Source: Amoebophrya sp. A120 (lineage: Eukaryota; Protista; Dinoflagellata). Taken from it: 64,000 bases of DNA. The stretch covers positions 6,788,743 to 6,852,742 of the forward strand of contig CAJINV010000002.1 in the NCBI GenBank assembly GCA_905178155.1, given 5' to 3'. The notes beneath the pieces were generated by a model, which was not told the origin of the DNA, ran no database searches, and saw nothing but the letters and a program-made list of their open reading frames with translations. Below, piece after piece: positions 33,144 to 64,000 of the stretch; the first letter of the stretch is position 1; every line of letters starts with the position of its first letter. A program made the position numbers and the translations under genes.

Positions 33144-34643
33144 ACGAGGTGGACAGCCGATGGGTAGTTTCGATACTTAACTTCTGGACAGCAAAGGGCG
33201 AGGCTCATCGTCGCTGTTGTATCGTAGTCACGTTTATCTATTTGGTTCTTAGAAAAAGAACGCATGTAATTAGAGTTGTTGTCGAAATTCCAATACGGTT
33301 ACGGTTTCCAACCTTAAGAAAAATACCTTACACGACTTTTTTGTCAGCGTAGTCACATTGATTCGGCGAAAGAGAAAAAAACAGAAAGCGGAAGTGACCA
33401 CGCAAGAACGACAGGATCAATGAATAACACCACCCCAGACGTCTTTCGTTACGTCGATTCTTAGTGGGAAACAATTTTACTGATACTCTGGGCTTCATGT
33501 TGTCTACGCGTGTACTAAAATATTTCACAAAACGCAGGTAAATCCAGTGTCAGCATCATGATCGTAACACTAGTTACTTGCGACTTGGGCTTTACGAAAT
33601 CCACGATGAAATTACACTCTTTCCTTTCGCCGTGTAAATAAAAGACCTATTACTCATGTATGATTTTTTCAAGCCGTTATCGCAACGCATCGACCAATGT
33701 GAAAAAATGCGAGAAAGTTTCTAATGATTATGTCTCCTCTTCTACCACTCCAGGTTCAGTGTAAAATAGCCAGAAAGAACAGCACAACTATACGCAAAGT
33801 CATAGCATAAGCACAGGGCGCACCACCACAACAGCCTTTTTTTTCACGGTGCCCGTCTGGAGGGACGTTTATTTTTTTCTCTCCTGTAAGGAGACGGGTC
33901 ATTTAGTTACTTCACCTATTAATAGTTCGTCTAGTTGCAGCAGAGATGACTGCTGTTTAGTGCAGTGAAAGCAATACCATCACGTGGTTGATTAGTTTAA
34001 AGATTCCAGCGAACAGTAATCACGACGAAATTCCTACTCTTTGTTGTGGTTAGCAACTGTTGCCAAACCCAAACCATTGTCATTGATATATACCTGAAAA
34101 ATGGGGAAGGACAAAAATGGACAACGACAAAGTAGTTTTGTTTCGTATTTGTTTTTTCAATACGCAAATCAAATCGCGGTCAACATGTGGGAATGAGAAT
34201 GTACATAATTAGACAATCTTGATCAGACCAAAACCCTTGTCGTTCTTGTCCGCTGTGACGCGGTCTTTTCGAGCCTGGTTCCTGCCCTGTTCGTTCCAGT
34301 AACAAACGCTACCCGTAAACTGATCTTTCTTGGATGTGTGTTTTCTTGTCACGAGCGTCAGGGAGTGGGGTCTGGGAAGATGATTCAGCATGAGCTGAGT
34401 GCGACAGGTGAGAGCTCAGGAAGCGGATGTGATGAGACAGCACGACGGACGTTGCGCGAGGTGGATCGTGCTGGACTGGTGTAGCTTTCGGCGTCACCGC
34501 TTCAGCTCGCGGCACGCTGCCGCCTGTGGAAGATGGCCAGCAGATGCGCACGCATATAATCGTTAGCTTCAACGAGAACGGGCGGCCCTGTGCATTTCGC
34601 GCGCCTCGGCAGCCGCATCAACCGCGACCGCCTCGGCGCTCCG

Positions 34644-35374
34644 TGTGTAATTCGGCGCGCGATGTCGCTAGCGGCCAGGGGGGCACGGCGGGCCAGCCAC
34701 GCCATGAGGGACCCTGACGAAGCAAGAGAAGAAAGGCAAGAAACGACCAGGCGGGCGACCCTGGGGAGCCGACTAAGCCGAGTCCACCAAGGAGCCCGGT
34801 TCCGTAGCACAAAACTACTACCAAGCCCACTCCGGCACCGGAACGGCGCAGAAGAGGTCGGAGCTGGCGAGCTCGCCCTTAATTTCTCTCCGCGGCCATA
34901 GATAGACCCTCCAGCCGACGGACCCCGGGCGGCGTGGGCTGCTAGCTCTCCGCGCTCTTCCATTTCCCCGCGGCCGTGGTGTGCGCGGTTTGGGCGCAGA
35001 GGTTAGCTCGGCCGTGTGTCCGGCCTGCCCGCCGGCCGGCCGCACGTTCGGACGGACCGGCGGCGCGCGGGCGCCCTCCCTCAAGTTGCGGCCCCGGGCC
35101 GTCCCTCGGCGCCGGGGGGGCCGGCGGGCCTCTCTCGTCTGGCAGGGCCGCCCAGCCGGTGTTGCTTGTTTCGCCTTGTTGACTTTGGCGGGCCGGCGGC
35201 GCCGCCCGCCCTGGGGCCGGCGGGCTCCTTGTGTTGCACGCCCCTCCCCTGCTCATGCATTTGACATCTGGCGCGCGCTCCTCAGTTTGGTGTTATTGTT
35301 TTGCCAAAACTTGCTGTGGCCGCAGCTGCTTGAGGAACGTACTTAGGTGTCAGTCGCGCGCGCTCAGATTACAC
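34644..35374. mobile_element. Putative intergenic GC-rich inverted-repeat element
   Basis: Very GC-rich core bounded by the imperfect IR TGTGTAATTCGGCGCGCGA / TCGCGCGCGCTCAGATTACACA. Confidence 0.45.
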
Positions 35375-35958
35375 ATCGACTCGGTGTGGCGGCACACCTT
35401 GTGTGTGTGAGTGTGGTCTATTTACCACGAGCGGAGGACTCCTTTTGGTTATGATTCCATGTCTTCTAACCGCTTGGCAGTATTGTGATGACCTCGCGTG
35501 GGTGGTTCGGCCGATGGCGATGAGCGCATGCAAAAAGAATGCGCCTCGCCCCAGGCCTTGTTCGGCGCGCTTTCTTTTGATCGTCGAAGTGTGTCTGTCG
35601 TAGTGCATTTAATCTTTTCAACACGAACACTCAGATGAAAAGAGTAAGTGCGAGGAGTGCTTTCACCTGCTAGACACGAGGGACGGAGTGTTGCGAGAGG
35701 CAGACACTGTGTGAGCATTTAGGTCGACTTCTTCTTCGTTGCGATAGCGCAGCCGCAGGCGAAATCTCGTGTGCGAAATTTGTTTCGATTTTCGTGAACC
35801 GTACTAACAAGCGAAGGCAAGAATCAAAATCATGTGACATCAATTCAGTTTCAAAACCAAACCTTATGCGATAGAAAATGTCGACCAGGACCAGCAAGGG
35901 TGCGCCTGATGCTGATCATGGGAGACATTAAAAAACAAGAAGCTTCTAAACGAAGACC

Positions 35959-36882: not shown

Positions 36883-38708
36883 TGAGATCACAGGGTTGAT
36901 CTTGATTTATCTGCTTTCAGATGCAGTTTTTTATTGAGAGTTTTTGATTTACTTAGTTTCGTCAATGACTTGGCTTCGTACTCTTGCTGTAGCACCGTCA
37001 AACAAGAACACGCTCAAGCAGTGCCCACAAGAAGGTCAAGTGCATGCTCATCTTGATCTTGCAGCTGAAATCAAATTACTGGAGCCGATGGTAAGAACTA
37101 CTACAACTCCTGCAGTCTTCAATGATTGCTCCTGTTTTATTCCGTAGAGGTGGAGGCGCCCTTGGCCTTGTATATTTGTTTCCGGTGTTCGCCACGGAGC
37201 GTGGCAGCGGCAGCGCTGTTCATTGGCAGAGAGTTCTGGCACGGTGCAGAGGGAGAGTGTCTGTTTCTGTGCTTGAGTGATGTGGACACTTGAGGTTGAG
37301 ATCTTTGGGTGATATAAGCACGTGATATGGGTTGAGTCTGTTATTCTTATTTTTTACCGTGGTGTAGTACTTATCATTTAGCACAAGAACAAACGCAGAA
37401 GCTAAATCCATGCGGTTGCTCTTGGTCTTTCTGCGTCGCTCGTGTTCCTTCGCGCGGCACCGTGTAGCGACCCCACCTACCGACCAGGGTCGCGGGCTTT
37501 CCGGCTTCTTTGCGCTGGTGTATGCAGCACGCGGCGCATGGAGCGGCGCCACCTTTAACCGGAAGGGGTACGCAGACAATGCGGGAGCGCGTCCCGGTCA
37601 GCGGCTCGCCCGCCTGCTTATCAAGAATAACGGCGAAGCGAGATGGAAAGTGGTGGCAACATCACCGAGAAGGCGGCCGGGCATCCATGCCAGCGCGCCG
37701 CGGGCCCCGGGTCCGGGGCGCCCGCGTTTTTCGTGGTCGGCCGTGCCCGAGTGCGGGGGGGCCGATGGGGGGGCGCCTCTGTCGCCTTTTCCAGCACCCG
37801 CCAACGAACCGCGGGCGCCCCACCGAAACGGCGCGGCGCCCGCGCCAGCATCGGCTCGACGTCTTGGCAAGAGGCCGGCGCCCGAACCACGGACGGGCGC
37901 CGCCCTGCCCGATGGCCGCCCGGCAGGTTGCTCCCTCTGAGCGAGAGCCCCCCACTCGCGGGCCCGTAGGAAGGCCCCTCGGTCGCGCCTCGCTCCTTGG
38001 TGGCGCGTGTGTTGTTCTCGGGTGCGCAGGCCGCCCCGCCTGGATCTTTGCTTCCATCCGTGATTCGCGCTCGCCCCCCATTGTGTGTAGGCGCGCGGGC
38101 TGTTTTCTACGTGCAGCCGAACTACATGAGAACGGCGGCCATTTTTCGCGTTCTTGTGGTCTTGCTTCGGGCTGCTCGCGCGCGTGTGTTTCCTGAGTAT
38201 GGTCATGAAGTTGGGCGAGGACGCGTGCCGACGAGGCCGATCTTTTCATTCTCCCTAGCGTCGTGGCTTTCTGTTCAGTGTGCTTGCTGGTGAAAGGCAG
38301 CGTCGTCTGCCGCGATTTCCGCGCGAGACGGCACCAACTTCGAGCGAGAGGAGAGACGTCATGCTACAGTGGAATCAGTCAGTATTTGTATAGATGCGAC
38401 CACACACTCGTACTCCAGCAATTGCTGCTGTAGCAAACGACGATGTCAGGTGCCGCCGCTTGAAGATGCACTAAGTATGATGTGCAAGCCCCAGTTCTTT
38501 TGGATGCTGGGGAACCGTCCGGACACCAGCTTTGCGGCGAATTTTTAGAATTAGCGAGGCGTATAGACGGCGTGCGAGGGAGGTTTTTGAACGAGACGTG
38601 CTTTTGATCCCGGGCAGCGAAACTTCAGTCCGCGGGTGCAGTGTGTTGGCTAGGCACAGTCTCCAACGCCATCGAAGATAAACGGACGCGGAACTACTTT
38701 GGACGAAG

Positions 38709-41700
38709 ATGTTTGTCTACCTGTCAAAGAAAATCGCGATCCCGCACAACCTGAATCTTCAGGTCATCGCGTGGAACCTGTCGCAAGGATGGATAGCGTG
38801 CGGCGGCGAGAGGGGCCTGCTGAAGGTAAGTGTAAGACTTGTTGGTAAAGGAGCATCAACAGTCTGAAGAAAGTCAACGAATCATAGTCTGTTGAGGATC
38901 TAGAGCATCTAATTCTAGAACAAGTCCAAGTGCGAATACATGATCAAAAAATATCCTCAGGTCATCAAGCTGGAAACTCCATCAGCAAATTCCTCTTCCT
39001 CTTCCAGCAATCTGTCGATGAATCAAACTCTGGAAGGGCATCAGGGCACGATTATCAATTGCACCTGGAACGAGAACTTCCGGAAACTCACTACCTCCGA
39101 TCAAAACGGGCTCATCATCGTGTGGATGCTGCACCGGGGAATATGGTTCGAGGAGATGATCAACAACCGCAACCGGTCCACGGTGAAAGATATGAAGTGG
39201 ACAAGCGACGGGCAGAAAATCTGCATCATCTACGAGGATGGGGCGGTGATTGTGGGGACGGTGGACGGCCAGAGGCTGTGGGGGAAGGAGCTGAAGGTAT
39301 TGATGTTGCCTGGTATAGTATGTCCATTCACTTCGGAAATGAAAATTTTATTTTTTTTGTGGTAGTTGAAAATATGATGCTGAAGCTTCATAAAAAGAAT
39401 TTCCAGCAAATGCGAGAAAAAACCTCAACAGAGCCAACTCGCGATGGTCGAGTGGGCCCCGGACGGGCGAAATATTCTCTTCGGCACCCCGAACGGCGAG
39501 ATCCACCTCTACGACCCCGAGGGGGTGTACGTCCTGAAACTTCCCTGCTACTGCCTGGACCAGGGGACGGAGGGGCAAATCCCGCTTGCCGGCCTTCACT
39601 GGTACAGTTCCTACTCTTACAGCAACAACGGCGCCAACGGCACCACCACCGCGGTGTCATCCGCCGCAGCGCAGTATCCACAGAAAAAAATCCATCCACA
39701 TCTTCCAATTTGTCATGCAAAACACGTATCAAGTCATGTGTATGTCATGCAAAAAATGGATGTGGATGGGTTTTTTTCTGTGGATACGCGGGCTAGCGTT
39801 CCGTCCACCCAGCCGACGCTTTGCTGCGCATACGAAAACGGCCGGGTGCAGATTCTGCGCCACGAAGCGGACGATAGACCTGTGCTGATCGATACGCAAA
39901 TGCGGTGCACCGGAGCGAGGTGGAACCCGAGTGGGACGGTGGTGGCACTCGCAGGGATGCAGGGCAACAACGAGGTTGGGGTCGTGCAATTTTACTCCGC
40001 GAACCAGGGGGAGCACTTACGGACACTGCGGCTGCCGGGGAATAATTTGCGAAGCTTGAGCTGGGAAGGTATTTTTGACGTGCTTTGTGTATGATCATCG
40101 TGATTTGTCATTGTCAGGTCGCTCCGATTCCGATTCTTAATCAAAAGCCATGGGTTATTATTATTAAACCACGTACTATAGCAGGGTGCATATTAACTTT
40201 ATTCTGCATGGTATCACGCACCGTGCTTTTCGCACTTCACTGCACCCTGCTGCGTGACTTTACGCAGGACGGTGCGCTACACGAGGACAGGAACTGCACA
40301 ACATTTGCGCAACTCCACACATCACGGCACACCGTGGTGCGTAATGCGCCATGCCTCTGCAGCGGCTGGTCGATTCAGCGTCATGAAATTCGCGAGAGAT
40401 GGCACGGCCAAAGACCTGCCCGCGGTTCTCTCTGAAGCCTTTCGGCTTGACCGCGCCGGTGCAGCGGCGCTCTGTAACTGCAACCAGGGGCGCTGCGTAA
40501 AATTTTCGAAGCGGCCGCCGCGCGACGTCGTAGAAGTAGCAGCCCGGGATTGGCGATATCGGTCGTGAACGCCGGCGGCCTCGACGGCTGGGAAAGCCGG
40601 CGCCCCCCCGCGGGCCCTGCTACGATCTCGCATTGGGACGACGCGAGAACGGTCGATATCAAAGCGATCGATATCGCATGATCTCCGCCTGATCTCCCCC
40701 GCGATCTCGTTTATTTCGTGCCCAATCTCGCTGATCTCGCTGGCGGAAATTCATGATCTCCCGCCTGATCTCCCCCGCGATCTCGTTGATCTCGTGCCCG
40801 ATCTCGTTGATCTCGCGGGCGGAAATTCATTCTACAGCGAAAATGGGAAGGAATTTTCGACCTGCGGGCGCTGGCCAGTAAGATCAATCTCGGCCGTGAG
40901 TTATATCGCAGCGAGATCGGCGGGAGGGGGTGCGAGATCGGCCGGGGATCGCCGCGAGATCGGCCGGAGATGAGATCGGCACGAGATCAGCGAGATCGGG
41001 AGGCCGCTTTCGTGGATCTCGCTATGTTGCCGGGACGAGGTTGGGGGCTTTTGCTCGTAAGATCGGGAGCCCCCGATCCTGCAAGCTTATTTATCTGTGC
41101 CCGCGCTCTGAGTGAGCGCGGGTTCGAAGCTGGGTCACGACTTCGGGCTTCGGGGGCACCATGACCGAGAGCGCCCAGTGTTGTTCCGATTGGCTGCGGC
41201 TGCGCGAGAAGTTTTCTGAGCTTCTGGCGCGGGTGTGGCACTGTGTGGGGCTGCTGGGGGCCCGGCCCCTGTGCATTTGCGTGCGCACCTGTGGCCAACA
41301 GAAAGTGGCCGGGCGTCGCACTTGTACCATTGCGACGGACGCATCCGCTTCGGCGCACTATGTCAAGGCGCGAGGAAAGCAGCGCTAGAACCTGCCTACG
41401 CGCTTTGTCACATTTGCGCGAACCCGGGGCGCGAAATTTTTAAAATCGGTTACATGCGTAAGATCATCTTGGGAACTTGGACCACTTGACTACACGAGGA
41501 CAGGAACTGCACAACATTTGCGCAACTCCACACATCACGGCACACCGTGGCTTCGTTCTCCCCACCACACCTCCCAGCACCTGGACGCGCAACTCCACAG
41601 GCACAGCCCCGCAGGCGCGGCGGTTATGTTGTTGAGTCGCATGGCTAGGCTGCAAGTATTCGTTGGTGTGCACCACATGCGACGTCGATGATGTCGCCTG

Positions 41701-44700
41701 CGGGTGCTGGGTCGGGGTTGGGCGTCCACGACATTGTTGCTGCATCTCTTCGGGGTTTGCAAATACCTTGTCGTAGCCATTGCGCCGGCGCTTGGTTTTG
41801 TCCACGATGTGGATGTCTCTGAGTCGCTTGTGCTTTGGTATCAGGGGTGCTGACTTGGAAGGAGAGCTGAGCGCGTTAGCCTATCGGCGTCGTTGCTCCG
41901 TCCTTCGCCCCTCGACGTCGGTCCGCCGGCGTTGATTGCCTGCAGGTGATTAGCGCAGTCGAGGGGTTCAGTGGTTGGTGTGGGGGCGAGGAGCTGTGGC
42001 GCAGTTTTAGCAGGTCCTTCTCCTGTTTCGGATTTCTCTGCTGCTCCACGAGCCAGAGTCGTTCGATTCATCCAGCGTACCTGGGGACGCTTGATTTGCC
42101 TTTTTACATTTGGAGCGCCAATCCTGGCGTCTCAGACAGGTCGCAGCGCGATGTGCTGCGTCCGCTAGATCACATACCCGCGGGAACTTCCCGGAACTTA
42201 GTCACGATTGGGAGCAAGACCCCGCTGCGTCGCCCGGGTTCCGGGCTCCACGGAGGTGCCCTACCCCGGCGCGTTTCCCACGTGCTCGCTACCTAGCTAC
42301 AACACAGCCCCGCGCGCCTGGATCTCTGCACCGACAGAGCCAGGCCGCCCCGTTGAGTCACATTTGGGGAAGATGTTCGGTGGGCCATGTCGTGTTCCAC
42401 GGCTTGGCCCACCTTCACGTCCGGGGCGTGGCTCTGTGGGGTTTGAGAGCTTGGCTCGCGCGGCTTGCTACTTGTAGCTCGCTGTGCCGGCCGGGTTCTC
42501 TTCTTGCTCGCCAGTGTGACCGTCGCAGGGCGTCCCGCGACGAGGACTGCAGCGCGCGTCAGCACTGCCTTCGATTATCATCGTTTCCGCGCGCTTTCGC
42601 TCGTTGGGTGAATTGCGCCAGGAATGTGAATTTATATAACGGAATTTAAAGATTTTCGCCCATTGGAGGGCACCGCGCGAGGCCCATCGTTGCCCTGGTC
42701 TGTCTGCCCGGGGATTCGTCGGCATAGCGTAAACCCCTCGGCCGTTCTGCGCCATGCCTCCGCAGCGGCTGGTCGATTCAGCGTCATGAAATTCGCGAGA
42801 GATGGCACGGCCAAAGACCTGCCCGCGGTTCTCTCTGAAGCCTTTCGGCTTGACCGCGCCGGTGCAGCGGCGCTCTGTAACTGCAACCANNNNNNNNNNN
42901 NNNNNNNNNNNNNNNNNNNNNNNNNNNNNNNNNNNNNNNNNNNNNNNNNNNNNNNNNNNNNNNNNNNNNNNNNNNNNNNNNNNNNNNNNNNNNNNNNNNN
43001 NNNNNNNNNNNNNNNNNNNNNNNNNNNNNNNNNNNNNNNNNNNNNNNNNNNNNNNNNNNNNNNNNNNNNNNNNNNNNNNNNNNNNNNNNNNNNNNNNNNN
43101 NNNNNNNNNNNNNNNNNNNNNNNNNNNNNNNNNNNNNNNNNNNNNNNNNNNNNNNNNNNNNNNNNNNNNNNNNNNNNNNNNNNNNNNNNNNNNNNNNNNN
43201 NNNNNNNNNNNNNNNNNNNNNNNNNNNNNNNNNNNNNNNNNNNNNNNNNNNNNNNNNNNNNNNNNNNNNNNNNNNNNNNNNNNNNNNNNNNNNNNNNNNN
43301 NNNNNNNNNNNNNNNNNNNNNNNNNNNTGCGACGGACGCATCCGCTTCGGCGCACTATGTCAAGGCGCGAGGAAAGCAGCGCTAGAACCTGCCTACGCGC
43401 TTTGTCACATTTGCGCGAACCCGGGGCGCGAAATTTTTAAAATCGGTTACATGCGTAAGATCATCTTGGGAACTTGGACCACTTGACTACACGAGGACAG
43501 GAACTGCACAACATTTGCGCAACTCCACACATCACGCCGCCGGTGCGTAATGGCAAATGATTCATCTGCTTCCGAAGCACACCATCGTGCATAATGTTAC
43601 GCAGCTTGGTATGAAGATGACGTTTGCACTTGGCACAGATTGGATGCAAGTGAAGAATCTGAACTAAAACCCTCTCCAGGTAGCGGTCTCCGCCTCGCGC
43701 TCGCCGTGGATTACCACATCTTTTTCGCGAACGTCCGACCTGACTACGTATGGGACTACTTTGGCAAAACCTTAGTCTACTCGAGCTACAAGAAAGAACG
43801 CTCAGAATACGTCGTCGTCTTCTGGAACATCCCCTCTTCCGGATCCGGTTCGGGTGCCGATGGGTCCACCACCGGTAACACGGGTGCCATCACCGGTGGA
43901 GTTGGTACAGGGACCGGTGGAGCTGCGGCGGCGACAAGTGGTGGTGGCGCCAATGCGGCTTCCTCCACCAACAGCTTAGCGCAGGCCAACGCGCAGTTGA
44001 ATAGCGGCATTCAGGTGAAGTACATGAAAAACGTCCAGGCGATCAAGTCCTGCAACGATCACTGCGTGATCGTGACCAAAACAACGCACTTGGACGACAA
44101 CCTTTCGAAAGGTGGAGCAGGCGGAGGACCACAGCAAAACACCCAACTGACCAGCTACTCGATCTTGCTGTGCAACGAAATCGGCACGGTGATGGAGAAG
44201 AAGGAAGTGAAGTTTCAAACGGCCATCAAGGGCGTCAGCATGACGAAGACGCATGTCGTCGTTTGCTCCCAAGACGCGGTGTACTTGTGGTCTTGGAATC
44301 GGGATAGCAACAAAAAGGGAGCGGCAGCCACGAGTGCGAAAAAGGCTGAGATGATGTTCCACATACAAGACGACGCGCATTTTGTGGAAAAGGATGAGTT
44401 TGCACACGGTACTAGAGTGGTAGTTCTTTGTCGACGCATGCTTGCAGTTCTTGTTTTTTGCATGATGTTAAAAATCTCAGTTGATGTTCATCTTGTACAG
44501 CACGATGTTGCTCCCATAAGCATTCACATCGTTCTACTTAAGTTTTATCACGAATACAGGTGCCCTCGACCAGGGCCAAATCCAGGATGGCATCGCCTGC
44601 GTTACCGCGTCAGACACGACCTTGCTGATTGGCCGCGAATCCGGCTTGGTGCAGAAGTATGCTTTGCCGTTTCTCCAGAAGGACGGGCGGTTCACGATAA

Positions 44701-47575: not shown

Positions 47576-48782
47576 TTGTCTTTCGGTTTATATGCACGGT
47601 GTTAACTCAGAAGCACGCGGCGCTAAAAGTAAAAAAAATGAAATTCAAACCAATTTCAAAAGTTTTAAATTTCTGGCTTCCCCCCTCGCTACAGAGCATG
47701 TATTTCGCGCAGCGTCTGGGATCGATTCAGGTCGATACTCGGACGCCCGGTCGCGGCCACTTGTGCTCAACATACTAGGTTCTCTTCGACAGTTCCCTAG
47801 TAGGTTGTGTCGCGTGGTGGATCTCGATTGCCTTCTTCACTTTCTTCCACTTGGAGTTCTTCAATTTCTGCACACGCTGCTAGGCAGTCGCAAATTGAAT
47901 TCCGCCCTGTCCGCGGGATAGAAAGCAGCTTTTTGCCCATTCCTTTGCCTCGATCTTTGGTAGATGGGAGCTTACGCGGTCTTATGGCGTGCTCCTCTGC
48001 TTCTATTTCTTTTTCTTGTTGTGCCTCCTTTCTTTGCCCCGGGTGTTGGTGCACCACGCCCGTGTCTGAGTTTAGCTTTCGTTATCGTGTCTGAGTTTAG
48101 CTTTCAGGGGAAATCTGATCCGAATTTGATCCGAAAACGGTCCGGACGTGGAATGTAGTATGCGGACCAAATTTGGACCAAATTTGGACCGGTTCCTGAC
48201 CAGATCTCGATCAACCATTTGAAATTGGTTGGAGGTCTCGATCAACCGTTTGAAATTGGTTCGAAATCTCGATCAACCGTTTGAAATTGGCCGGAGTCTC
48301 GATTACCCGTTTGAAATTCCCGATCACCGTTTGAAATCTCCGGCCGCCATGTGAATTCGCAGCCTGCCGGCGGCCGCCAAGCGGCGACTTTCGTCCGTCA
48401 GTAGTTGGCCTGCGGGCTTGTTAGCGGATTTGCCGGTCTCCCTTTAAGGTGTTTCGGAAAGATCGAGAGAGTGGTAGGCTAATGCGTGACGCCTCGTACA
48501 GATGGAGCGATCGGCCGCTCGGGTGAGTGGTCGCTCGGCGACCCATCGCGAATAAAACTCGCCTTGGCTGTCACCGTATGCATGCTCTGTTTCTTACATA
48601 TGTCAACAAAAATGATGAACACCCACCCACCCCTGCATGCAAAGTCTGAAACTTTTGAAATTGGTTTGAATTCCGTTAGAAAAGAAATTAGTGCTCGCTT
48701 GCTTTTGAGTTAACACGGTGGCCGCGTGCCAACACGCGCATATAGTAAGTGTGAAATGTAAGTGTACTCGTGACAAAGACAA
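47576..48782. mobile_element. ~1.2-kb intergenic inverted-repeat element
   Basis: Perfect 24-bp IR core AATTCAAACCAATTTCAAAAGTTT (~47642-47665 / 48649-48672) within longer imperfect arms (GTGTTAACTC/GAGTTAACAC; TATATGCACG/CGCGCATATA); internal minisatellite at 48205-48337. Confidence 0.8.
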
Positions 48783-54800: not shown

Positions 54801-57800
54801 CGAAACCGAGTTAGACTTCGAGACGAAAGCGAAGGTGAAGCAGAAGAGACAGCACGACCAGCTACTGACCCTGTTCGGCGAGATTTCCAAAGATTTGGAA
54901 AAGGAACGGAATCTGAATTCCAGATTAGTGCAAACGGTGGACGCAATGGAAAACACCTCCGCCGTTTTGTACGCACCATCCAGGGGCGGAATCCCACCAC
55001 CGAACATGATGGGCGGCGGCGGCGGGGGAGGTACTAACCGCTCGGACCGCAAAAGAGGAGGACAACATCACAGCACTTCTTCGGCGAGGCATTCGGGTGT
55101 TGGGGCCAACCGGGGGACGAGTAACCAACCGGAGGAAAATCTTTTTGGTGGTATGGTCATCAACAAGAAGGACTTTTTCCACAAGCAGAAGTCCTCGAAC
55201 TCCGTGCGGTCGGGCCGACAAACCCCAGTTTTGTCTGTCCAAAGACGGCTTTCGTCCGCGTCCAATGCTGGTGCTGCGTTCAACATGATCCCTGGGTTTG
55301 CCCAGCGGAATACGTTCGCGAATTTCGGAAATCGGGGTAGCGGTTTCACTGCGACTTCATCCATGTCTCTGAACACGGCGAATTTAGAGTCTGCCATGAA
55401 CAGTGTGCAGCTAGGAGTGGACAGTCCGTTTTTCAGTCGGAAGAACAGCATGCAGAGCAATGTTGGCACGAACAGCACCCCGTTCGCCAGCCAACCGCTC
55501 GGCGCGGCGAGGAGAAGCCGCGAGTTGATGCGGCGGATCTCGACCGGCCAGGACTTGCAGACTGCGATGGGAGGAGGTGGAGTTGGAGCTGCTTCCTCCC
55601 TGCCGATGTCGAATTACGCGAACCTTCCCCCCTCCTCCTCTCTCGACCGGCAGGGGTCTTTGCAGGAGCTTGTCGCACAGCGGAACTCGTTCAGTAAGTT
55701 TGGCGGAGGAGGAAATGCCGGTGGCGGAGGCGGCCGTGGAGGTGGTCCGCCTCCTCTTCCGTATGACGACGGCGGCTCGGACTCGTTGAATGTCAGCCAG
55801 CGATCGAGTTTCAACTCTGTCGTTTCTCGACAGACTTTTCAGCGCGGGGAGCTGCACCGCGGCGGTGGCAATGAAAGTTTCCACTCGGTCGGATCGGCAG
55901 CTGATTTGGATAACCAGGCTGGCGTGCCGGTTACCGTCCCACGGCCGGAGCGGATTTCGCAACTGATGCAGAACTTCTACCCGCATCTTGCTGGTGCGCA
56001 GCATCATGGATCACATCAAATAACGGGCGGCGGAGCTGGTGGACAGCGATCCGCTGGGATTTCTCCGAGAAATTCCTTCAGCAACCCTCCAGGCGGTGGA
56101 GCTGGTGCGCGGGGGGCGTCCTTCGGCGCCGCTTCGTCCTTCCTCCGACGGGCGTCGGCCCCGAATGCGGTCTTTGGTGGTGGCCCTCCTGGAGGTTGGG
56201 GAGCAGCGGCTGCTGCGGGAGGTGGTCCTTTAGCCTCTATGCTGCCAGCGGCCAGGAACAGCTTCACCGGGCGAAATTCGTTTAGCAATTTGGGAGGGGG
56301 AGAAATGTCAGAGCTGGCCTCGATCGTGGAGGGGAAAAGGCAGACAATGGTGGAAGATTTTATCTCTAAGGACTACAGCACGGCAGATTATGACAAGGAA
56401 GTATCTGGTACAGCAAGTGCAACAAAACATCATCATCCCGACAGAAAGTATTTGCACCGGAGAAGGTCTGACTTTGTGGATTATGGCGACAAGTTGAAAA
56501 CCCTGTACATGACAGGAGGCACGACCAGCGGCAAAGGTGGTGGTAGTGGTGATAATGGGGGGAAGGAGAACCTGTTGCACGGCGGCACAAAGGCGGGGTT
56601 TCAAAAGCCTCCTACAGCTGTCTCTTCACAAGCAGCGGAAAACAACACGAGAAGCGATTCAATACCAAAACATCAACTGCCACTGCACGATGTCGTTCGG
56701 ATGAAGCAGCACGACCCTGAAGCTGGGCAAGAGATGAAGAAGGAGACCGCAGACGAGCAAAACCGCCATTCCTCGTCCTCCGCTGCCACAGAAGTGGTGG
56801 AGCCAGGACAAGAGAACCGCGACTCCCTTCTACCTGCGGTTGCCGACAAGAACCGCACTTCCGCAGTTTTCGGAACTACACTACAAGAGCGGTTCTCAAA
56901 AAATAGTAACAGTTCGCAAATCGCGTCCAGCCCTGCGGAGAGCGACAAGACCGTGGAACAAAAGCAGCCGTCTCCGACGGATTCCGAGGCAACGGTGACG
57001 TCGGAAGCTGGTGCAGCTGCTCCCGTGATGCCGAGCTTCAGCTTTTCGCCCGAGGCGGCTATGCCGATTATCGATAGCAAGGAGATAAACCAACTGGCGC
57101 TGTCGGTGATGTCGAGTCAAGAAACTGCTATGGGCTCAGTCGCGCGGTCGAAGGAGTTTTTTGTTGGTTGGAGTAAAAACGGAACAGCTGAAAATGGGAG
57201 TGTTGGACGTGGAGCAGCAGCAGCTCGTGAGATCAGCACTGCAGGTGACAACAACGACTTCGAGCCAACGCTTCGACTTCAAGCAGATAGCGGCATAGTA
57301 GGAAGAACGACCCCAACCAGTAATACTAACAACCTCATGCAAATAAACCACGACCCAAGCGAAAACCTCCCCATCGACCACCGCGCGACAGCAGAGCGTG
57401 ACGAGGAGGAAAACGAGAACGCTCCTGACTCCGAAAACGATTCCGACGTGGACGTTTTTGAGCAGTTGGAGCTCCTGCAAAAGGAAAAGCGCGAGTGGAT
57501 TATCAAGGAGCACGATTTCCAGCACGAGAAGAAATTTTTTCAACGGAAACTGCTGCAGAAGGACTCGTATGCATTGCAAAAACATCGTACTAGTACAAAA
57601 CGCATGACAAATTTTTCGTAAAGGAAAAATGAAATTTGTCATGCAGAAAAAGCTAAAAAAGCAGATCTGTCATGCAAGACCTGCATTTATACGAGTACGA
57701 TACTTTTGCACAGGATAACTCGGAAATCGAGAAGCTCGAGGAAGACATAGATTTCTACGCGGAGCAGGCAGAGGAACTGCGCGCGAAAAAATTGGTGCAA

Positions 57801-60800
57801 ATCGAGTCGGAGCTGAAGGAAGTGCGGGTGAAGTACGGAGAGGTTTGCGATGCGAAGGAGAAACTGGAAGAGGAAAAGGCAGAATGGAAATGTAAGTATT
57901 TCAACTTGCTGGAGTTGGACCAAAGTTGCACAGAAGGGGATACGGTGCAAGAAAACGTCGAAAAAAATCCAGACATCAGCGGCACGATAAGTAGATCAGG
58001 GGCTATTGATGCTGGGGAGGCTGCGCATGATTGCTCAGAAATAGACGAGCCTAATGTTGTTGATGGTACAAATTATCCAGGAGCACAAGCTGAGCATCAC
58101 CCGCCCGCTGGAGCGGAAACAGGCGGCACTGCGACCACGACCCCAACAGCACAGCACCACAAGAACTTGACGAAGCAGAAAAGACTGAACACCAAACTCA
58201 ACAAGGATTTGGAACTAGTGAAGCAAGAGAGAAATGCGCTTCTGGTGGATAAGCGCATTCTAGAAGCGGATGCCGAAACGAAAGAGCAACAGTTTTCGAA
58301 ACTCAGTCAAGATTTCCGACACCAGAAAAAGCTTTTGACCACAACCCAAGCAGACCTCGAGTTGTTAACCGACAAGTTTGAGCAGAAGAGGCTAGAATTC
58401 AAGACTTTATCCAACCACTTCGACTTGCAGAAAACGCAAACTTCTCACTTACAAAAAGAGAATGAGAAGTTCGATTTGGAGAACAAAGAACTGAAGAACC
58501 GATTGGAAATAGTGGAAACGTTTGAGCTGAAGGATCTACAGCAAAGGAACGATAAAATAGAACTGCTGCTATCAGTCGAAGAGCACAAGAATCTCCAGCT
58601 CCGCGCTCTAATCGATGAGAACAAACTGCGGCAAGATTTGGCGGAGCAGCAGCAAACGAGCGACTTCACGACCTTCGAGAAAGTAGAGCAGGTGGGGAAC
58701 TTGAGGCAGGTGGAACTGCTGGGCAAGCGGAACCAAGAACTGGAAAGTGAATTGATAAGATTGAAGCAGGGGAAGTTGGAGGAAGTGGAGAAAGAAAATT
58801 TGAAACTGATCAAACAAAATGAAGAATTGGAATATGAAGTGAAGAAGAAGGAACAAGTGGAAATCGCGAAATTGACCGAGTACGAGGAATTGATGGGAAA
58901 GCTGGAAAGCGGGCGGATATTGATTCTGGATTTCGAATCGCGATTGCAGCAAGCGCATATCTTCCTCGAGGAGGAGCGGAAGGAAAAGAACACTTTGTGG
59001 AAGGTTTTTGACGAAGAGCGGGCGGAATTGAAAGAGAAGCATAATCACGAGAAGGAGAAACTGCAGATGACCATCGAAGACCTACGGGCGGAACTTTTCT
59101 TCTCTGGCCTATCCACAAAAAAAACAGCACGATATCATCCCCATCCAGTTTGATGTCAACATCTACAAAACATGCATATGAAGTCTACTTAGCATGTTGT
59201 GCAAAAGGGGATGGTGATGGTTTTTTTTTTGTGGATACGGTCGGGTAGATTACTACAAGGACTTAGAGACCTGCTGCGAGGACTTCGGGACTAAGATTGA
59301 ATTTTTCGAAACAACAACGATTCCGCAGAAAGATCGGGAAGTTTTGAAGCTGAAGAAGGAGTTGGAACACTTTGCGAAGAATGTGGAGAAGGAAAAAGCA
59401 GAACTGCTCGAATTACGGAACCTGAAACTGTCAGCCGATATGAACTTGATCGACTTACAAGCGTGGAAGGAAAACGCTCTAGCCGATTACAATCAAAACG
59501 GGATGCGATTAGCGGACATGGAAAAAGACGTGTTGGACTCGAAGGGAAAACTCGCGGAAACGAAACAAGAGCTGACAGTCATCACGAAGAAACGCGCGAC
59601 TGCGATTTCAGTCGGTGTCACCGCAGATCCTGACATGATCCAGTATGGGTTCAAGCGGCACTATGTGAATAAAAATCAGCAAACAGATTGGAGCTTGCAG
59701 TTGGAGAAGAAGGAACGGAAACTCGTGACGGAGGAAGCGAAAAATGTGTACTACGATCAAATGCTGGTCAATAGTCCTGTCGGGGCGGCGGGGGATCATA
59801 GTCCTGACAATTTCGATAATTTTTTGTACAACGAAAGCAACAGCCTCTTCTCTCCAGTTTCCTTCGGAGGTGGAGACAACATCGGATCGCCGACGAGTCA
59901 AACATCCGCGCCAGGACTTGCAAGACCCGGACTTCCGGGAGTCCATCCAGCGAAAACGCCTAAGTCCGGAAAACAGCAGCGCTTTTCGTGGCCATAACAT
60001 GCTGATTCGCCTGGTTTTTTGGGTCGTTTTCGTGCGCCGGCGCAAGTTGCCCGTGGCGCAAACCTCCTGGTGGAGGCTTCCCAAGCTGCCTAGCCATGGT
60101 CGCCTTCCCTGGCTACGCAGCACCTGGGGTGGCCGTTGTTCTCGGAGTAAATGCTCTGGCCATGATTGTCTTTCGATTCTGCTCTCAGAATGCCTGCGCA
60201 GCATCGGGCGAGGGGGTTCTTTGGCAGAGTGGGGCTTCTGCGTGCACAGCCAGAGAGGCAGCGCCCTATGGCCACGGCCTTGCGCCCTCCACGGCTAGTA
60301 GCCTAGGGCAGCAGGGTTTTGGGGCGTGTTCTGCCTCGCCCCGCCCAAGCCGGCAGACTGGCAGGCGTGCCTGGCGCCCTCCCTTGGTAACCTCGCGGCG
60401 CCTTGTTAGCGTCTCTACCGGCGTGCACCCTCTTCACCTGGCAGGGGCCTTGGCGTTGTCTCCCCTTGCCTCCTTCGGGCGTGTGGTGCAGCTGTGGCTT
60501 CGCCTCTTCTCAAGACGCCAGCCGAGCAATGTCAATTTTTGCCGGCCGCCAGGCCATGGTGGATAATGTTATCCCCGCTCTATTGCTGGTGGTGCGGGTG
60601 CGGCGTGCCACACCATGCAGGACGGACCCGGGACACATTGGGGCCGCACGGTATGGCGGCCTGTATTTCTGGCCAATGAGGTGCCGGGGTTTGGTCCAGC
60701 GTGTGATGGTGGTTGTGGCAAGAATGGCGGCAGGGCACGGCCGCCACGCTTCTGCCAGCCCAGTGCACCTTTTTTGCTTTGTTGGCGCCGCCGGGCTTCC

Positions 60801-63800
60801 AGCCAGCGGCGCCGTGCGCATTCGCCCCCGAACGGGCGCGGGGGGACAGGCCATCGCCACCCGGCCGGGCCACCCACGAAAAAAAACGCCCCGGGGGGCG
60901 GCGCCGGGGTTCTACAGATGTTTGTGGCGCCTGCCGTCTGCTGCTGAAAAAGCCGTATGCGCGCAAGTTTTGCGCAAGTCCGCAGCAAGTTCTGGAATCG
61001 TCTCGCGCTATCCACCGTTTTGGCTCTAACTTTTCTCCAGTCTCCTTCGGAGGTGGAGACAACATCGGATCGCCGACCAGTCATCTGGTATATTTTCGCT
61101 GCGACACATGGGTGGGGTGGTTAACTAGCTAGAATGTGGCCGCTTGTTATGACTATGATAGCCAACGGGAGAGATCTTCGTCAGAGATACCGGCCGCCAC
61201 AGAAGAGAGGCCATTCCGTCGCGATTCGCGTCTGCAAGTGTAGTGGGCGCGATGCATACGAGAAGACGCCCGGCGTGTCACATGTGCAACGCTTGCTCCT
61301 TCAGCATGATCATGAGCGTGATCCTGCTGACTCAACAGCAACACAAAGACCTGGAGTAATAGATGGCCACAAAGGCCAGAAGCCCAGGCCCGTCCGCGGC
61401 CAGCTCAGCTGCCCCCGCGCCGGCCGAAAAGCCTGGATGCCGGCGGTGATCAGGGTGGAGGAAAGACCGGAAATCAAACAGCGAAAAAAGTGCGCGCACA
61501 TGCGCGAAATTTGTGTTGCGGGAGGGTCAAAAGTGCCTCTTTTTTGAGTATGATCATGTTTTTTGGCCACGAGCTAACGGCGGCCATGGTCATATTTCCT
61601 GACCTGCCTCATACCACCGTGATTGGCGGTTTTTGTAAAATGCTACTTTTCAGCGTTTTCGCGCCATAGCATCGGTTTAAAAAACATGATCGTGCGCTAC
61701 TTTGTGTCATTTTCTTTTAGAAATTTTCCAACTTCTCCAAAAGTGACACATCTGAGCTGCGGAAAAATGGTATGATCATGTTTTTCAAACACGATGGCAC
61801 AGGGCACATAAGGCCCTCACCAGAAAAAGCATGATCATGCCCAAAATTGCCAATTTTCGCGGTCCGCGAAAATTGCGAAAAAGTCCGTGAATTTCTTGTG
61901 TCGAAGACAAGAAATCGTCCTGGCCCGGCTCAGGGCCAGCGGATCCCGGAATTGGTATGATCATGCTTTTTAAGCACGGCGAGGCTGGGCTCTCCGGCCC
62001 CGCCTTTTGGGTGACTTTTGGTCCTGGGGCAGTGGACAAGCGATTCGCCAGAGTCCAGGCCCCCTCCAATAGCACGCAGGTCAATCCTCATCCGGGGCGC
62101 CCGGGCTCGGCTTCCCACCCCCGAACGCCCCAGCTGTGGCGCTGGCCATCTTCCCTGCTGACGAGGCTGCAACGCAGGCGGGGTGGCGTCCCGCACATGC
62201 TCACCCAGCAAGTGCCTTGCCAGATCCCTCCTGTTAGCTAGCTAAGTCATCACATCAAGCGGCCACTAGTTGCTTCGTGACATTCCTCCTTCCAACTCAA
62301 TCAAAACACTACGCACGCCCTACTATCCCGGCGAGGAAAAAAAGGAAAAAATAACGAGGCTTTTTTTTGAAAAAAAAGTGGCATTTTTTAGGTAAAAGTG
62401 GGTGCGTGTATGATTATGATCATTTTTTTCAGCGCGATATCGGAGGTGGAGACAACATCGGATCGCCGACGAGTCTTGTTTCCTTCGTTATGCCTTGCAC
62501 GGTCGTTAGCATACAGAATGGTGAATTTGCAGTGAATTTGTATTGCATGACTTGCATTTACTAACAAAAGAGAAGGGCGCTGCGTAGGTATGGACACGAA
62601 CCCAAGCAGCCCACGCAGCGTGAAGGGCTGCTCGTCGCCCGGTGGCACTTGCAGCACCGAAAAAAGTGGTCTTGCGGGGGCCCGCCGGACTGTGTGGGGC
62701 ACGCATATGTAACCAAAGATGGTGAATCGTGTGGCTCTTGTTCATCTGCGCGTCTGCCTCAGAAGTTCCTCTCCGGAAAGGCCGGGAGGGAGGGCGACGC
62801 CTGAACACAGGGGCACTAGTTCAACACGTGCGCTCTCACGAGTTGTGGATGTGGCTTGGAATTGGATATCTGGGAGTAGCCTCGGGTGGAAAGGAAGGCA
62901 CGACTCGGCTACGGGCACTAGCTTGCTTGGCCTGGTGTGCTCGGCTTACAACTCCCAAGGCGTGTTTTTGCCCCCGGAGCAAGTCTGTTTCGACGTGGCT
63001 CTCAGGTCAAGAATTCTCTTGGTGAATTTTGAGGCTTTTTGTTTTTGCGACACTTTTTTGAAGCCCCCAAACCCGGAGTTTCTCACGCGCTAGCGAATTT
63101 TGAAAAGGAGCCGGAGGCCAAAATTCACCGGCGCCCTTTTCAAAATCCACCCCAAAATTCACCGGGCGCCCATTTTCGACCGTGATAAGCAAACTTTAGC
63201 GCAGAAAAGTACTCAAAAAAGTGCACAGATAGGCCATGAGAAGGAACGCAAAGGGGGAAAAAGCGGAGTCCTCTGCTGCCCTAAGCCCGTCTGTATTCTG
63301 CTGAAAATGCCGCAAGATTTCACGCGCCTGCCGGGAAAATGCGTCAAAGCTCTCGGCCGGGTCCTTTCGTCCTTGCCTGCCTTCTTGCTTAGTTGTATGC
63401 GCTTCGCAGCCTTTATTTCTGGCGTCTTTGCCGCGGCTGCTGCAGTGCTCTTCTGCGAGAACCCGGAGGCGCAAAAATCTGCCCAAAGAACGGCGCCCGG
63501 GCCATGTCCTCTGGCTGCCCACTGCACAAAAGCCCGCGGCTGCTGCGCGGTGCAGGGCCTTCTACTTCCCAGAACAGGGCCAAGAGGGACAATGTCCCGG
63601 CGGGCTCATCTGCAATTTGGCATGCAAAATTCACTGCAAATTCACCACTTCTCATGCTAACGGGTGTTAAAGCTCTAGTTCCTTCGGAGGTGGAGACAAC
63701 ATCGGATCGCCGACGAGTCTCTCATCTCTGCAGAAGCAGTTCTCTATCGGCGGCAATGGTCCCCTGGCCGGCGGCGCGGGTGATAGTACGAGCTTGAGTT

Positions 63801-64000
63801 TCAGAAAACTGCGAACCACACAGCAGCTCGACAGTCCCCCCGGCGCGATGGCTTTGAGCAGTCCGCTGAACCAGAGCCAAAACATCCGTGCTTCGCGGTG
63901 GCGGAAGTTGCGTGCGGTTACGAAATTCGTTGTACAGCAGCAACACGCGCCGGCGGCAGCCTCTGCGGGCGATGCTGATGATCAGAAAACGGACGGTCGG
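51829..64000 (+). CDS. Very large low-complexity/coiled-coil hypothetical protein, continuing past the window end
   Basis: ORFs 51829-57621, 57672-59153 and 59344-59997 join in frame after removing 57568-57717 and 59110-59237. The frame resumes after the fourth repeat copy (~63690) and is open to 64000 (GDNIGSPTSLSSLQKQFSIGGNG...RWRKLRAVTKF). Confidence 0.8.
57568..57717. mobile_element. Introner-like TIR element, family E
   Basis: TATGCATTGCAAAAACATCGTACT...AGTACGATACTTTTGCACAGGATA; perfect DR ACTCG. Confidence 0.92.
59110..59237. mobile_element. Introner-like TIR element, family F
   Basis: TATCCACAAAAAAAA...TTTTTTTTGTGGATA; DR TGGCC/CGGTC. Confidence 0.88.
59901..61030. mobile_element. 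Cassette 1, GC-rich, weak subterminal IR
   Basis: CCAGGACTTGC..CGGACTT (59911-) versus AAGTCCG..GCAAGTTCTGG (60976-60995). Confidence 0.55.
61084..62439. mobile_element. Cassette 2, subterminal IR and iterated ATGATCAT palindromes
   Basis: Imperfect IR 61123-61177 / 62222-62271 with core GTGGCCGCTTG/CAAGCGGCCAC; ends in GATA. Confidence 0.65.
62476..63678. mobile_element. Cassette 3, ~45-bp subterminal IR
   Basis: 62504-62549 / 63621-63662 with perfect 21-bp core TGGTGAATTTGCAGTGAATTT. Confidence 0.75.

What the first reader, a model, noticed from the sequence alone, without database searches (positions are those of the whole stretch)
59848..63719. Repeat-cassette array inside an exon: three unrelated kb-scale IR cassettes stacked at one site, each followed by a copy of the host coding sequence
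Seen: the segment encoding (F)SPVSFGGGDNIGSPTS occurs four times, 1.2-1.4 kb apart. The three intervening sequences are mutually dissimilar by eye and GC-rich, and each has its own subterminal inverted repeat. The host frame enters at copy 1 and leaves at copy 4, so deleting between equivalent positions of copies 1 and 4 (3820 bp) restores it seamlessly. Established: DDE transposon target duplications are typically 2-11 bp and the short introners here use 5 bp, so 36-53-bp duplications do not fit. Inference: a site-reusing integration system that regenerates its target at each insertion (integron/CRISPR-like geometry, not homology), with the array removed from the RNA or DNA.
Basis: partly seen in the sequence, partly recalled or inferred. 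Interest (0 to 1): 0.92.

Follow-up and report, generated by a model that had tools for sequence, protein, structure and literature searches.

The report
Stacked introners with long target duplications
Three unrelated kilobase mobile elements sit one behind another in a gene of a parasitic dinoflagellate, each likely having copied 36-54 bases of the gene on landing; two of them are cut out of the RNA near their own ends, which keeps the copies in frame and would add short tandem repeats to the protein.

Summary
The array is real, but it is not integron-like. The host protein matches Amoebophrya sp. A120. Four copies of a 36-bp core are separated by three unrelated repeats that also occur elsewhere. 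Relatives of cassette 3 at four other sites each carry their own 36-55-bp duplication, so long target duplications are a property of the family. RNA contigs show cassettes 3 and 1 removed singly (62487→63684; 59959→61035). Both copies stay, in frame, adding 16 and 36 codons. The same cut keeps the frame at all three other complete copies. No splice joint was seen for cassette 2; read-through meets a stop. All three insertions share one duplication boundary (±1 nt), and two more stacked sites were found. Best reading: kilobase introners inserted at long staggered breaks, re-using one nick. The enzyme is unidentified; nick-primed copying is my inference. Published Amoebophrya introners have 3-5-nt repeats, and I found no long-duplication class in the papers searched. 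Verdict: new variant of a known kind.

The parts
59242..59899 (+). Host exon upstream of the array (coiled-coil, low-complexity protein, no Pfam family), ending in repeat copy 1
   Evidence: RNA contigs
59109..59241 (+). Ordinary short introner used as a geometry reference: 1 nt + TAT...ATA element + 4 nt removed
   Evidence: record 11 skips it; matches P0002
59847..59900 (+). Repeat copy 1 (host target, FSPVSFGGGDNIGSPTS)
59901..61029 (+). Cassette 1, 63% GC, low-copy repeat. 59901-59959 stays in the spliced RNA in frame; 59960-61034 is removed
   Evidence: depth 125-333 vs 43.5; joint 59959->61035 in 1 of 4 runs; same donor in P0002
61030..61083 (+). Repeat copy 2, 54 bp, 3 differences from copy 1, all synonymous (one lies in the spliced-out 5 nt)
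61084..62439 (+). Cassette 2, low-copy repeat with TAT (61089)...ATA (62439) ends; read-through stop at 61130-61132; no splice joint seen
62440..62476 (+). Repeat copy 3 (36-37 bp)
62477..62488 (+). Junction scar: 10 nt identical to the target start (59857-59866)
62489..63677 (+). Cassette 3 element, 1189 bp, TATG...GCTCTA, subterminal inverted-repeat arms 62504-62539 and 63627-63662, high-copy family; intron 62488-63683
   Evidence: joint 62487->63684 in 2 of 4 runs
63679..63720 (+). Repeat copy 4 (41-42 bp)
63684..64000 (+). Host exon downstream, same frame, open to the window end
   Evidence: RNA contigs
40277..43550 (+). Second stacked site: three copies of a 50-61+ bp repeat around kb cassettes inside GT-AG intron 40070-43679 of a WDR35-like gene; holds a 438-N gap, so partly unresolved

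Best explanation
Three unrelated non-coding kilobase repeats sit at one point of a host exon, each followed by a 36-54-bp copy of the target; cassettes 3 and 1 are spliced out singly near their own ends, both copies stay in frame, and the elements likely entered one after another through long staggered breaks that re-used the same nick. SHOWN: long, variable, site-specific duplications for the cassette-3 family; two splice joints; a common right boundary of the duplications (±1 nt). INFERRED: (a) staggered nicks 36-55 nt apart, one fixed, are filled in to give the duplication. (b) The element is copied in by synthesis primed from the nick (target-primed reverse transcription by a host non-LTR enzyme, or a repair polymerase; about 45%), rather than by a DDE transposase with long variable duplications (about 25%) or another route. 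(c) The duplication preserves the target, so it can be hit again. Cassette 3 predates cassette 2, because its duplication reaches further left than copy 3. (d) Splicing removes the element plus only about 5-7 flanking bases, as for the short introners, so exonic copies persist mainly when the residue is a multiple of three, leaving peptide tandem repeats. (e) Cassette 2 breaks that rule (+37 nt) and probably truncates this gene.
For: Distinct duplications at other cassette-3 copies: 55, 50, 40 and 36 bp in L004, L005, L012 and L010, i.e. 4 of 4 copies with both flanks held; L011 has the left end only. Element ends align sharply at TATG in 6 of 6 left junctions. RNA joints: 62487->63684 in 2 of 4 runs, 59959->61035 in 1 of 4; products are stop-free in the host frame. 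The annotated protein P0002 uses the same donor (59959) and the same cassette-3 joint. Net residue is 108, 48, 60, 48 and 39 nt at five insertions and 37 at cassette 2: 5 of 6 in frame, P=0.018; 4 of 4 in the cassette-3 family, P=0.012. L005 has ORFs of over 200 aa on both sides that join in frame. Templated scars re-copy the target start in 2 of 5 left junctions with a known duplication (10 and 12 nt). One of 5 copies (L010) lacks its right end while the left is intact. In DNA, the window's versions of cassettes 1 and 2 sit at about the flank depth (37-50 and 42.5 vs 43.5).
Against: All RNA runs come from one sample and one study, are contigs, and are RNA only by the tool's guess plus the spliced introner; the annotation may rest on the same data. 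The cassette-1 joint is one contig at depth 3 with 28 letters on its short side, below the 31 the tool asks for, and the same run holds an unspliced contig (59932-60043). Splicing at L004, L005 and L012 is assumed by analogy, and L012 may be non-coding. Long duplications were measured at other sites only for the cassette-3 family, not for cassettes 1 or 2. There is no poly(A) tail, and both ends are intact in 4 of 5 copies, which is unlike typical non-LTR products. No enzyme was found. Targets share no sequence motif or unusual fold (z -1.8 to +1.3), so why one nick is re-used is unexplained. No single read or contig spans the array.
Confidence: 0.72

Rival explanations
1. Same elements, but the stack was built by unequal crossing-over between alleles that each carried an insertion at this hot spot, using the 36-54-bp copies as homology.
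For: Copy 2 differs from copies 1, 3 and 4 at three positions, all synonymous (chance about 0.018), as a diverged allele would.
Against: It still needs independent insertions at the same nick. Synonymous changes also follow if copy 2 is translated (joint). Homology of about 40 bp is short for crossing-over (own knowledge).
Confidence: 0.12
2. The main mRNA is joined seamlessly from copy 1 to copy 4 (for example at the AG|GT inside the core), and the joints seen are minor forms; the protein is unchanged.
For: The 3820-bp deletion restores the frame; the core holds GGAG|GTGG; such a join is invisible in these contigs; observed joints are at low depth (3-4.2 vs 6-12 for the upstream exon).
Against: Seamless removal would need no 3n residue, yet 5 of 6 are 3n. 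Cassette-2 junction contigs stand at exon-like depth in 3 of 4 runs.
Confidence: 0.1
3. A dedicated integron/CRISPR-like system that regenerates a specific site and collects cassettes.
For: Three unrelated cassettes share one boundary; two more stacked sites were seen (window 40277-43550; L010), plus a head-to-tail joint of the cassette-3 family with a different 40-nt spacer (63674->62500).
Against: The duplicated sequence differs at every site; cassette-3 relatives are dispersed and 3 of 4 show no second cassette in the DNA held; duplication length varies; no Pfam family in 12 cassette ORFs.
Confidence: 0.04
4. Assembly artefact: alternative alleles concatenated.
For: The window holds a likely scaffolding duplicate (1479-1675 around one N) and a gap at the second stacked site; no listed contig spans the array.
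Against: No N in the array; copies differ in length and sequence; both cassette 1 and 2 versions are near full single-copy depth; junction contigs copy1-cassette1, copy2-cassette2, cassette2-copy3, cassette1-copy2 and copy3-copy4 exist.
Confidence: 0.03

Closest known systems
Amoebophrya introner elements (Farhat et al. 2021, PMC7789003; sections 10, 11, 23 and search passages read)
   Same: Same organism group; repeated non-canonical introns with paired ends; removal of the element plus about 5 nt; TAT starts.
   Different: Described direct repeats are 3-5 nt and non-canonical introns average 240 nt in A120. Here the elements are 1.1-1.4 kb with 36-55-bp duplications that are left in the mRNA, and they stack.
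A120 introner families in Gozashti et al. 2025 Dataset S2 (PMC12130899; all 58 A120 rows seen): fam103 (27 copies, 1143-1191 bp, 16-bp TIR) and fam169 (4 copies, about 1070)
   Same: Sizes fit cassette 3 (1189 bp) and the cassette-1 intron (1075 nt); fam103 is classed TIR DNA of unknown superfamily.
   Different: Match by size only, no sequence compared. Listed TSD calls are 3 and 2 nt; the largest in the 58 rows is 11 nt. So the families may already be catalogued without the long duplication.
Aureococcus introners that add codons (Gozashti et al. 2022, PMC9860276, Fig. 2F-G legend)
   Same: Splicing leaves the target duplication in the transcript and lengthens the protein.
   Different: There a fixed 12 bp (8-bp TSD + 4); here a variable 39-108 nt.
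Tandem transposons by double insertion (McGurk and Barbash, bioRxiv 10.1101/158386, passages)
   Same: Element-duplication-element geometry, because the target is preserved; R1 tandems are separated by 33-nt duplications.
   Different: The passages read concern copies of one family with a target preference; here three unrelated families share one nick with no evident motif.
Long-duplication elements: R9 and Dualen LINEs (PMC9977147, passages); IS1549/IS1634 (PMC2266710, passages)
   Same: Long duplications (126 bp; >50 bp; 8-514 bp), variable in Dualen and the IS elements.
   Different: These are autonomous and not described there as introns. The cassettes have no coding homology and no tail.

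Membership tests
Amoebophrya introner elements (IEs) | Repeated family of introns | tested here: met
   Cassette 3: five relatives 79-99% alike and depth 1000-2200 vs 43.5; cassettes 1 and 2 repeated by depth and variants only
Amoebophrya introner elements (IEs) | Spliced out of RNA at non-canonical ends | tested here: met
   Cassette 3 (2 of 4 runs) and cassette 1 (1 of 4, weak); not seen for cassette 2
Amoebophrya introner elements (IEs) | Inverted repeat joining the two ends | tested here: inconclusive
   Significant for cassette 3 only (0/500; 46/500; 17/500); end pairing predicted for all three
Amoebophrya introner elements (IEs) | 3-5-nt direct repeat at the boundaries | tested here: not met
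   36-55-bp duplications; no shared 5-nt repeat at the cassette-3 ends
Integron / CRISPR-type array | One conserved recombination site or repeat for all cassettes | tested here: not met
   Different duplicated sequence at each of six sites
Integron / CRISPR-type array | Dedicated integrase next to the array | tested here: inconclusive
   No Pfam hit in cassette ORFs or the host protein; DNA beyond 64000 and the genome were not available
Integron / CRISPR-type array | Excised circular cassettes | not testable with these tools
   Joint 63674->62500 in DNA has near single-copy depth and another spacer; it fits a chromosomal tandem better
Non-LTR retrotransposon (SINE-like, TPRT) | Variable-length target duplication with one fixed side | tested here: met
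Non-LTR retrotransposon (SINE-like, TPRT) | Poly(A) or simple-repeat 3' tail | tested here: not met
   Neither end has one
Non-LTR retrotransposon (SINE-like, TPRT) | Frequent one-sided truncation | tested here: inconclusive
   1 of 5 copies with both flanks (L010) lacks the right end
TIR DNA transposon / MITE | Inverted repeats at the very ends | tested here: not met
   Cassette-3 arms lie 15 nt inside both ends; only TA...TA is terminal
TIR DNA transposon / MITE | Short fixed-length duplication | tested here: not met
   36-55 bp, variable
TIR DNA transposon / MITE | Autonomous partner with the same ends | not testable with these tools
   No genome held; Farhat 2021 reports no transposase found in A120
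Penelope-like elements / retrozymes | Pseudo-LTR tandems, hammerhead ribozymes | tested here: not met
   No Rfam match at E<=1 in 59700-64000; no terminal direct repeats within the three cassettes. Some PLE clades lack ribozymes (PMC8557442), so this is weak

The most novel reading that the evidence does not exclude
An undescribed insertion pathway in Amoebophrya pastes many unrelated intron-elements into long staggered breaks, re-uses the same nick, and, because splicing leaves the 36-55-bp duplication behind, acts as a genome-wide generator of in-frame protein tandem repeats. It would link introner spread directly to the rapid protein evolution of this lineage and define a new class of eukaryotic mobile element.
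Probability: 0.3. Interest if true: 0.85.

Novelty: new variant of a known kind. Interest (0 to 1): 0.62.

Why it matters
How Amoebophrya introners move is an open question: no transposase was found in A120 (PMC7789003). Long duplications with a fixed side, templated scars and a re-used nick are a readable footprint of the mechanism and can be counted genome-wide. Introners are mostly described as neutral for protein length; here they would add 13-36 codons of tandem repeat per insertion, a concrete route to internal protein repeats that can be checked in existing data. It also warns annotators: the public model P0002 runs out of frame across this array.

Tried and rejected
No whole genome is held for the window, and the other assembly's contigs could not be searched as a genome, so there is no genome-wide count and no orthologous empty site. 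Protein searches: the upstream exon found only P0002; the downstream exon and the L005 host ORF found nothing among longer proteins, which is weak evidence. The search of cluster representatives for an empty-site orthologue did not run (full queue). Pfam on 21 proteins hit only WDR35-type families in one. Rfam gave nothing. The viral-contig scan gave 0. Of 13 metagenome loci, 7 loci on 5 contigs are cassette-3 relatives; the other 6 loci are chance motif hits and were dropped. Run X10 laid 0 reads (no test); X8 holds only short pieces. X3 and X4 have no cover at 59894-60084, and no run covers 61655-61968; holes in contigs prove nothing and were not used. The DNA joint table was cut (19 not shown), so absence of the two joints from DNA was not checked. 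The idea that targets are hairpins was rejected. Canonical GT-AG removal at 62487-63678 was rejected: out of frame and not the joint observed. Four other kb inserts in the window show no long flanking repeat. Earlier scan notes: nothing on this genome or sequence. Literature: searches for introner + target site duplication + in-frame + amino acids (0 papers), Amoebophrya + target site duplication (4 papers), and searches showed no description of long duplications in Amoebophrya. The library lacks most subscription papers; the Farhat supplement, two supplementary files of PMC12130899 and bioRxiv supplements were not seen and may bear on novelty.
Full report
Setting. The window is a compact eukaryotic region full of short hairpin introns with TAT...ATA ends. 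The exon upstream of the array is 100% identical to a protein its source names Amoebophrya sp. A120 (P0002). Farhat et al. 2021 (PMC7789003; abstract, sections 10, 11, 23 and search passages read) describe such introners with 8-20-nt inverted and 3-5-nt direct repeats, and report no transposase in A120. No whole genome was available.

Observation. Four copies share a 36-bp core, spaced 1183, 1393 and 1244 bp. Their right boundaries agree within one base, while the left boundaries of copies 2, 3 and 4 differ, giving 54, 36-37 and 41-42 bp. The 3820-bp deletion restores an open frame. The three cassettes are unrelated and encode no Pfam family in 12 ORFs and no Rfam family. The inverted repeat is significant only in cassette 3, though folding pairs the ends of all three.

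Is the array real? In DNA run X1 the flanks have depth 43.5. Cassette 1 has 125-333, cassette 2 has 70-140 and cassette 3 has 1000-2200, so all three are repeats (summed contig depth is only a rough guide to copy number). The window's own version of cassette 1 has depth 37-50 at three variant positions (total minus variant depth). A contig with no difference runs from cassette 2 into copy 3 at 42.5. Both are therefore near full single-copy depth, which alternative alleles would not be. RNA contigs add the junctions copy 1-cassette 1, copy 2-cassette 2 and cassette 2-copy 3. No listed record spans the whole array.

Are the repeats target duplications? A 20-nt motif from the cassette-3 inverted repeat found 13 loci, of which 7 (5 contigs of record set JACKZZ01, which also carry this window's short introner families) hold relatives 79-99% alike. 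All 4 with both flanks held are bracketed by their own direct repeat: 55 (L004), 50 (L005), 40 (L012) and 36 bp (L010), each with one mismatch or small indel, each a different sequence. Left ends align exactly at TATG in 6 of 6; right ends stop at GCTCTA or a variant. It also shows a dispersed family rather than a dedicated site. The junctions carry scars: in the window and in L004, 10 and 12 nt after the left copy re-copy the start of the target; L005 and L012 have small changes at the right junction. L010 lacks the right end of the element.

How is it removed? Four runs of one sample, guessed to be RNA, were laid; X3 skips the introner at 59109-59241, as P0002 does. Table 5 lists three joints. 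One, 63031->63166, is an internal variant with other letters between and is set aside. 62487->63684 (X3 depth 3.7, X7 depth 4.2; sides 30 and 37) removes cassette 3 plus 7 flanking bases and leaves copy 3, the scar and copy 4: GGGDNIGSPTSLVSFVGGGDNIGSPTSLSS..., +48 nt, in frame. 59959->61035 (X5 only, depth 3, side 28; weaker) leaves copy 1, 59 nt of cassette 1 and copy 2: +108 nt, in frame. Both acceptors lie 6 nt after GCTCTA. P0002 uses the same donor and the same cassette-3 joint, but links 59959 to 62444 and so runs out of frame; it may rest on the same data. Applying the cassette-3 cut to L004, L005 and L012 leaves 60, 48 and 39 nt. In L005 it joins two ORFs of over 200 aa without a stop, and in L004 it gives a plausible exon; L012 may be non-coding. 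Cassette 2 is the exception. It has TAT...ATA ends, the short-introner cut would leave 37 nt, read-through stops at 61130, and no joint was seen while its junctions are covered at exon-like depth. So 5 of 6 residues are multiples of three (P=0.018), three of them by analogy. A seamless copy-to-copy join cannot be seen in these contigs and remains possible.

Stacking. Cassette 3 must predate cassette 2, since its duplication extends further left than copy 3. The geometry recurs: at window 40277-43550, inside a GT-AG intron of a WDR35-like gene, with a gap that leaves it partly unresolved; in L010, where an unrelated element with 215-bp terminal repeats starts right at the second duplication copy; and in a DNA joint linking two cassette-3 ends through a different 40 nt. 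Double insertion at a preserved target is known (McGurk and Barbash, passages). What is unusual is that unrelated families share the nick, and the targets show no common motif or fold.

Mechanism. Shown: long variable duplications, one fixed side, scars, splicing at fixed positions near the ends. Inferred: two nicks 36-55 nt apart leave long overhangs; the fixed 3' end primes copying of the element, sometimes after a short false start on the other overhang (the scars); fill-in makes the duplication. I put about 45% on nick-primed synthesis (borrowed non-LTR reverse transcriptase or repair polymerase), about 25% on a DDE enzyme of the IS1549/IS1634 kind, and the rest on other routes. The lack of a tail and the mostly intact ends count against ordinary retrotransposition. 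The mechanistic expectations in this paragraph rest on my own knowledge.

Comparison and novelty. It works like an Amoebophrya introner but fails the 3-5-nt repeat criterion. It resembles the Aureococcus introner that adds four residues (PMC9860276, passages), on a larger and variable scale. Long duplications are known from R9, Dualen and IS1549/IS1634. Polarella introner classes have 3-8-nt duplications in the passages read; Replitron, Penelope-like and review passages gave no closer match. All 58 A120 rows of Dataset S2 of PMC12130899 list duplications of at most 11 nt; fam103 and fam169 match cassettes 3 and 1 in size only. The families may thus be catalogued while the long duplication, its retention in mRNA and the stacking were not found in my searches. 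Verdict: real, a new variant of a known kind, interest 0.62.

Noticed in passing
window 40277-43550: Second stack of kb cassettes between three 50-61+ bp repeats inside a canonical intron of a WDR35-like gene; the first cassette appears twice, the second time with a 438-N gap and without a repeat before it.
   Followed up: partly
L010 439-1957: Unrelated 1.5-kb element with 215-bp terminal direct repeats, abutting the duplication of a right-truncated cassette-3 relative.
   Followed up: partly
window 63873-63888 vs 59900-59908 and 61017-61027: The start of cassette 1 (9 nt) and the reverse complement of its end (11 nt) both match one spot of the downstream exon; possibly templated junction scars.
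   Followed up: no
window 61084-62439: Cassette 2 is covered in RNA contigs at both ends with its junctions; it may be retained and split the gene into two units (an in-frame ATG lies near 63849).
   Followed up: partly
window 13245-13990: 0.7-kb insert in a gene with thrombospondin/vWA-like motifs (labels from recall); shares an exact 20-nt word with cassette 1; no long flanking repeat.
   Followed up: partly
window 47595-48720: 1.1-kb intergenic element with 25- and 36-nt subterminal inverted repeats and an internal 31-bp tandem array; no long flanking repeat found.
   Followed up: partly
window 34380-35560 and 37140-38345: GC-rich kb inserts between genes without long flanking repeats.
   Followed up: partly
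window 1479-1675: 100-bp exact duplicate around a single N, probably a scaffolding artefact.
   Followed up: no
window 57568-57720: Very high-copy short introner family (summed DNA depth up to 95,000 vs 43.5).
   Followed up: no
protein P0002: The public gene model leaves the host frame across the array and ends early; it also starts at about 57030 although the ORF is open from 51799.
   Followed up: partly
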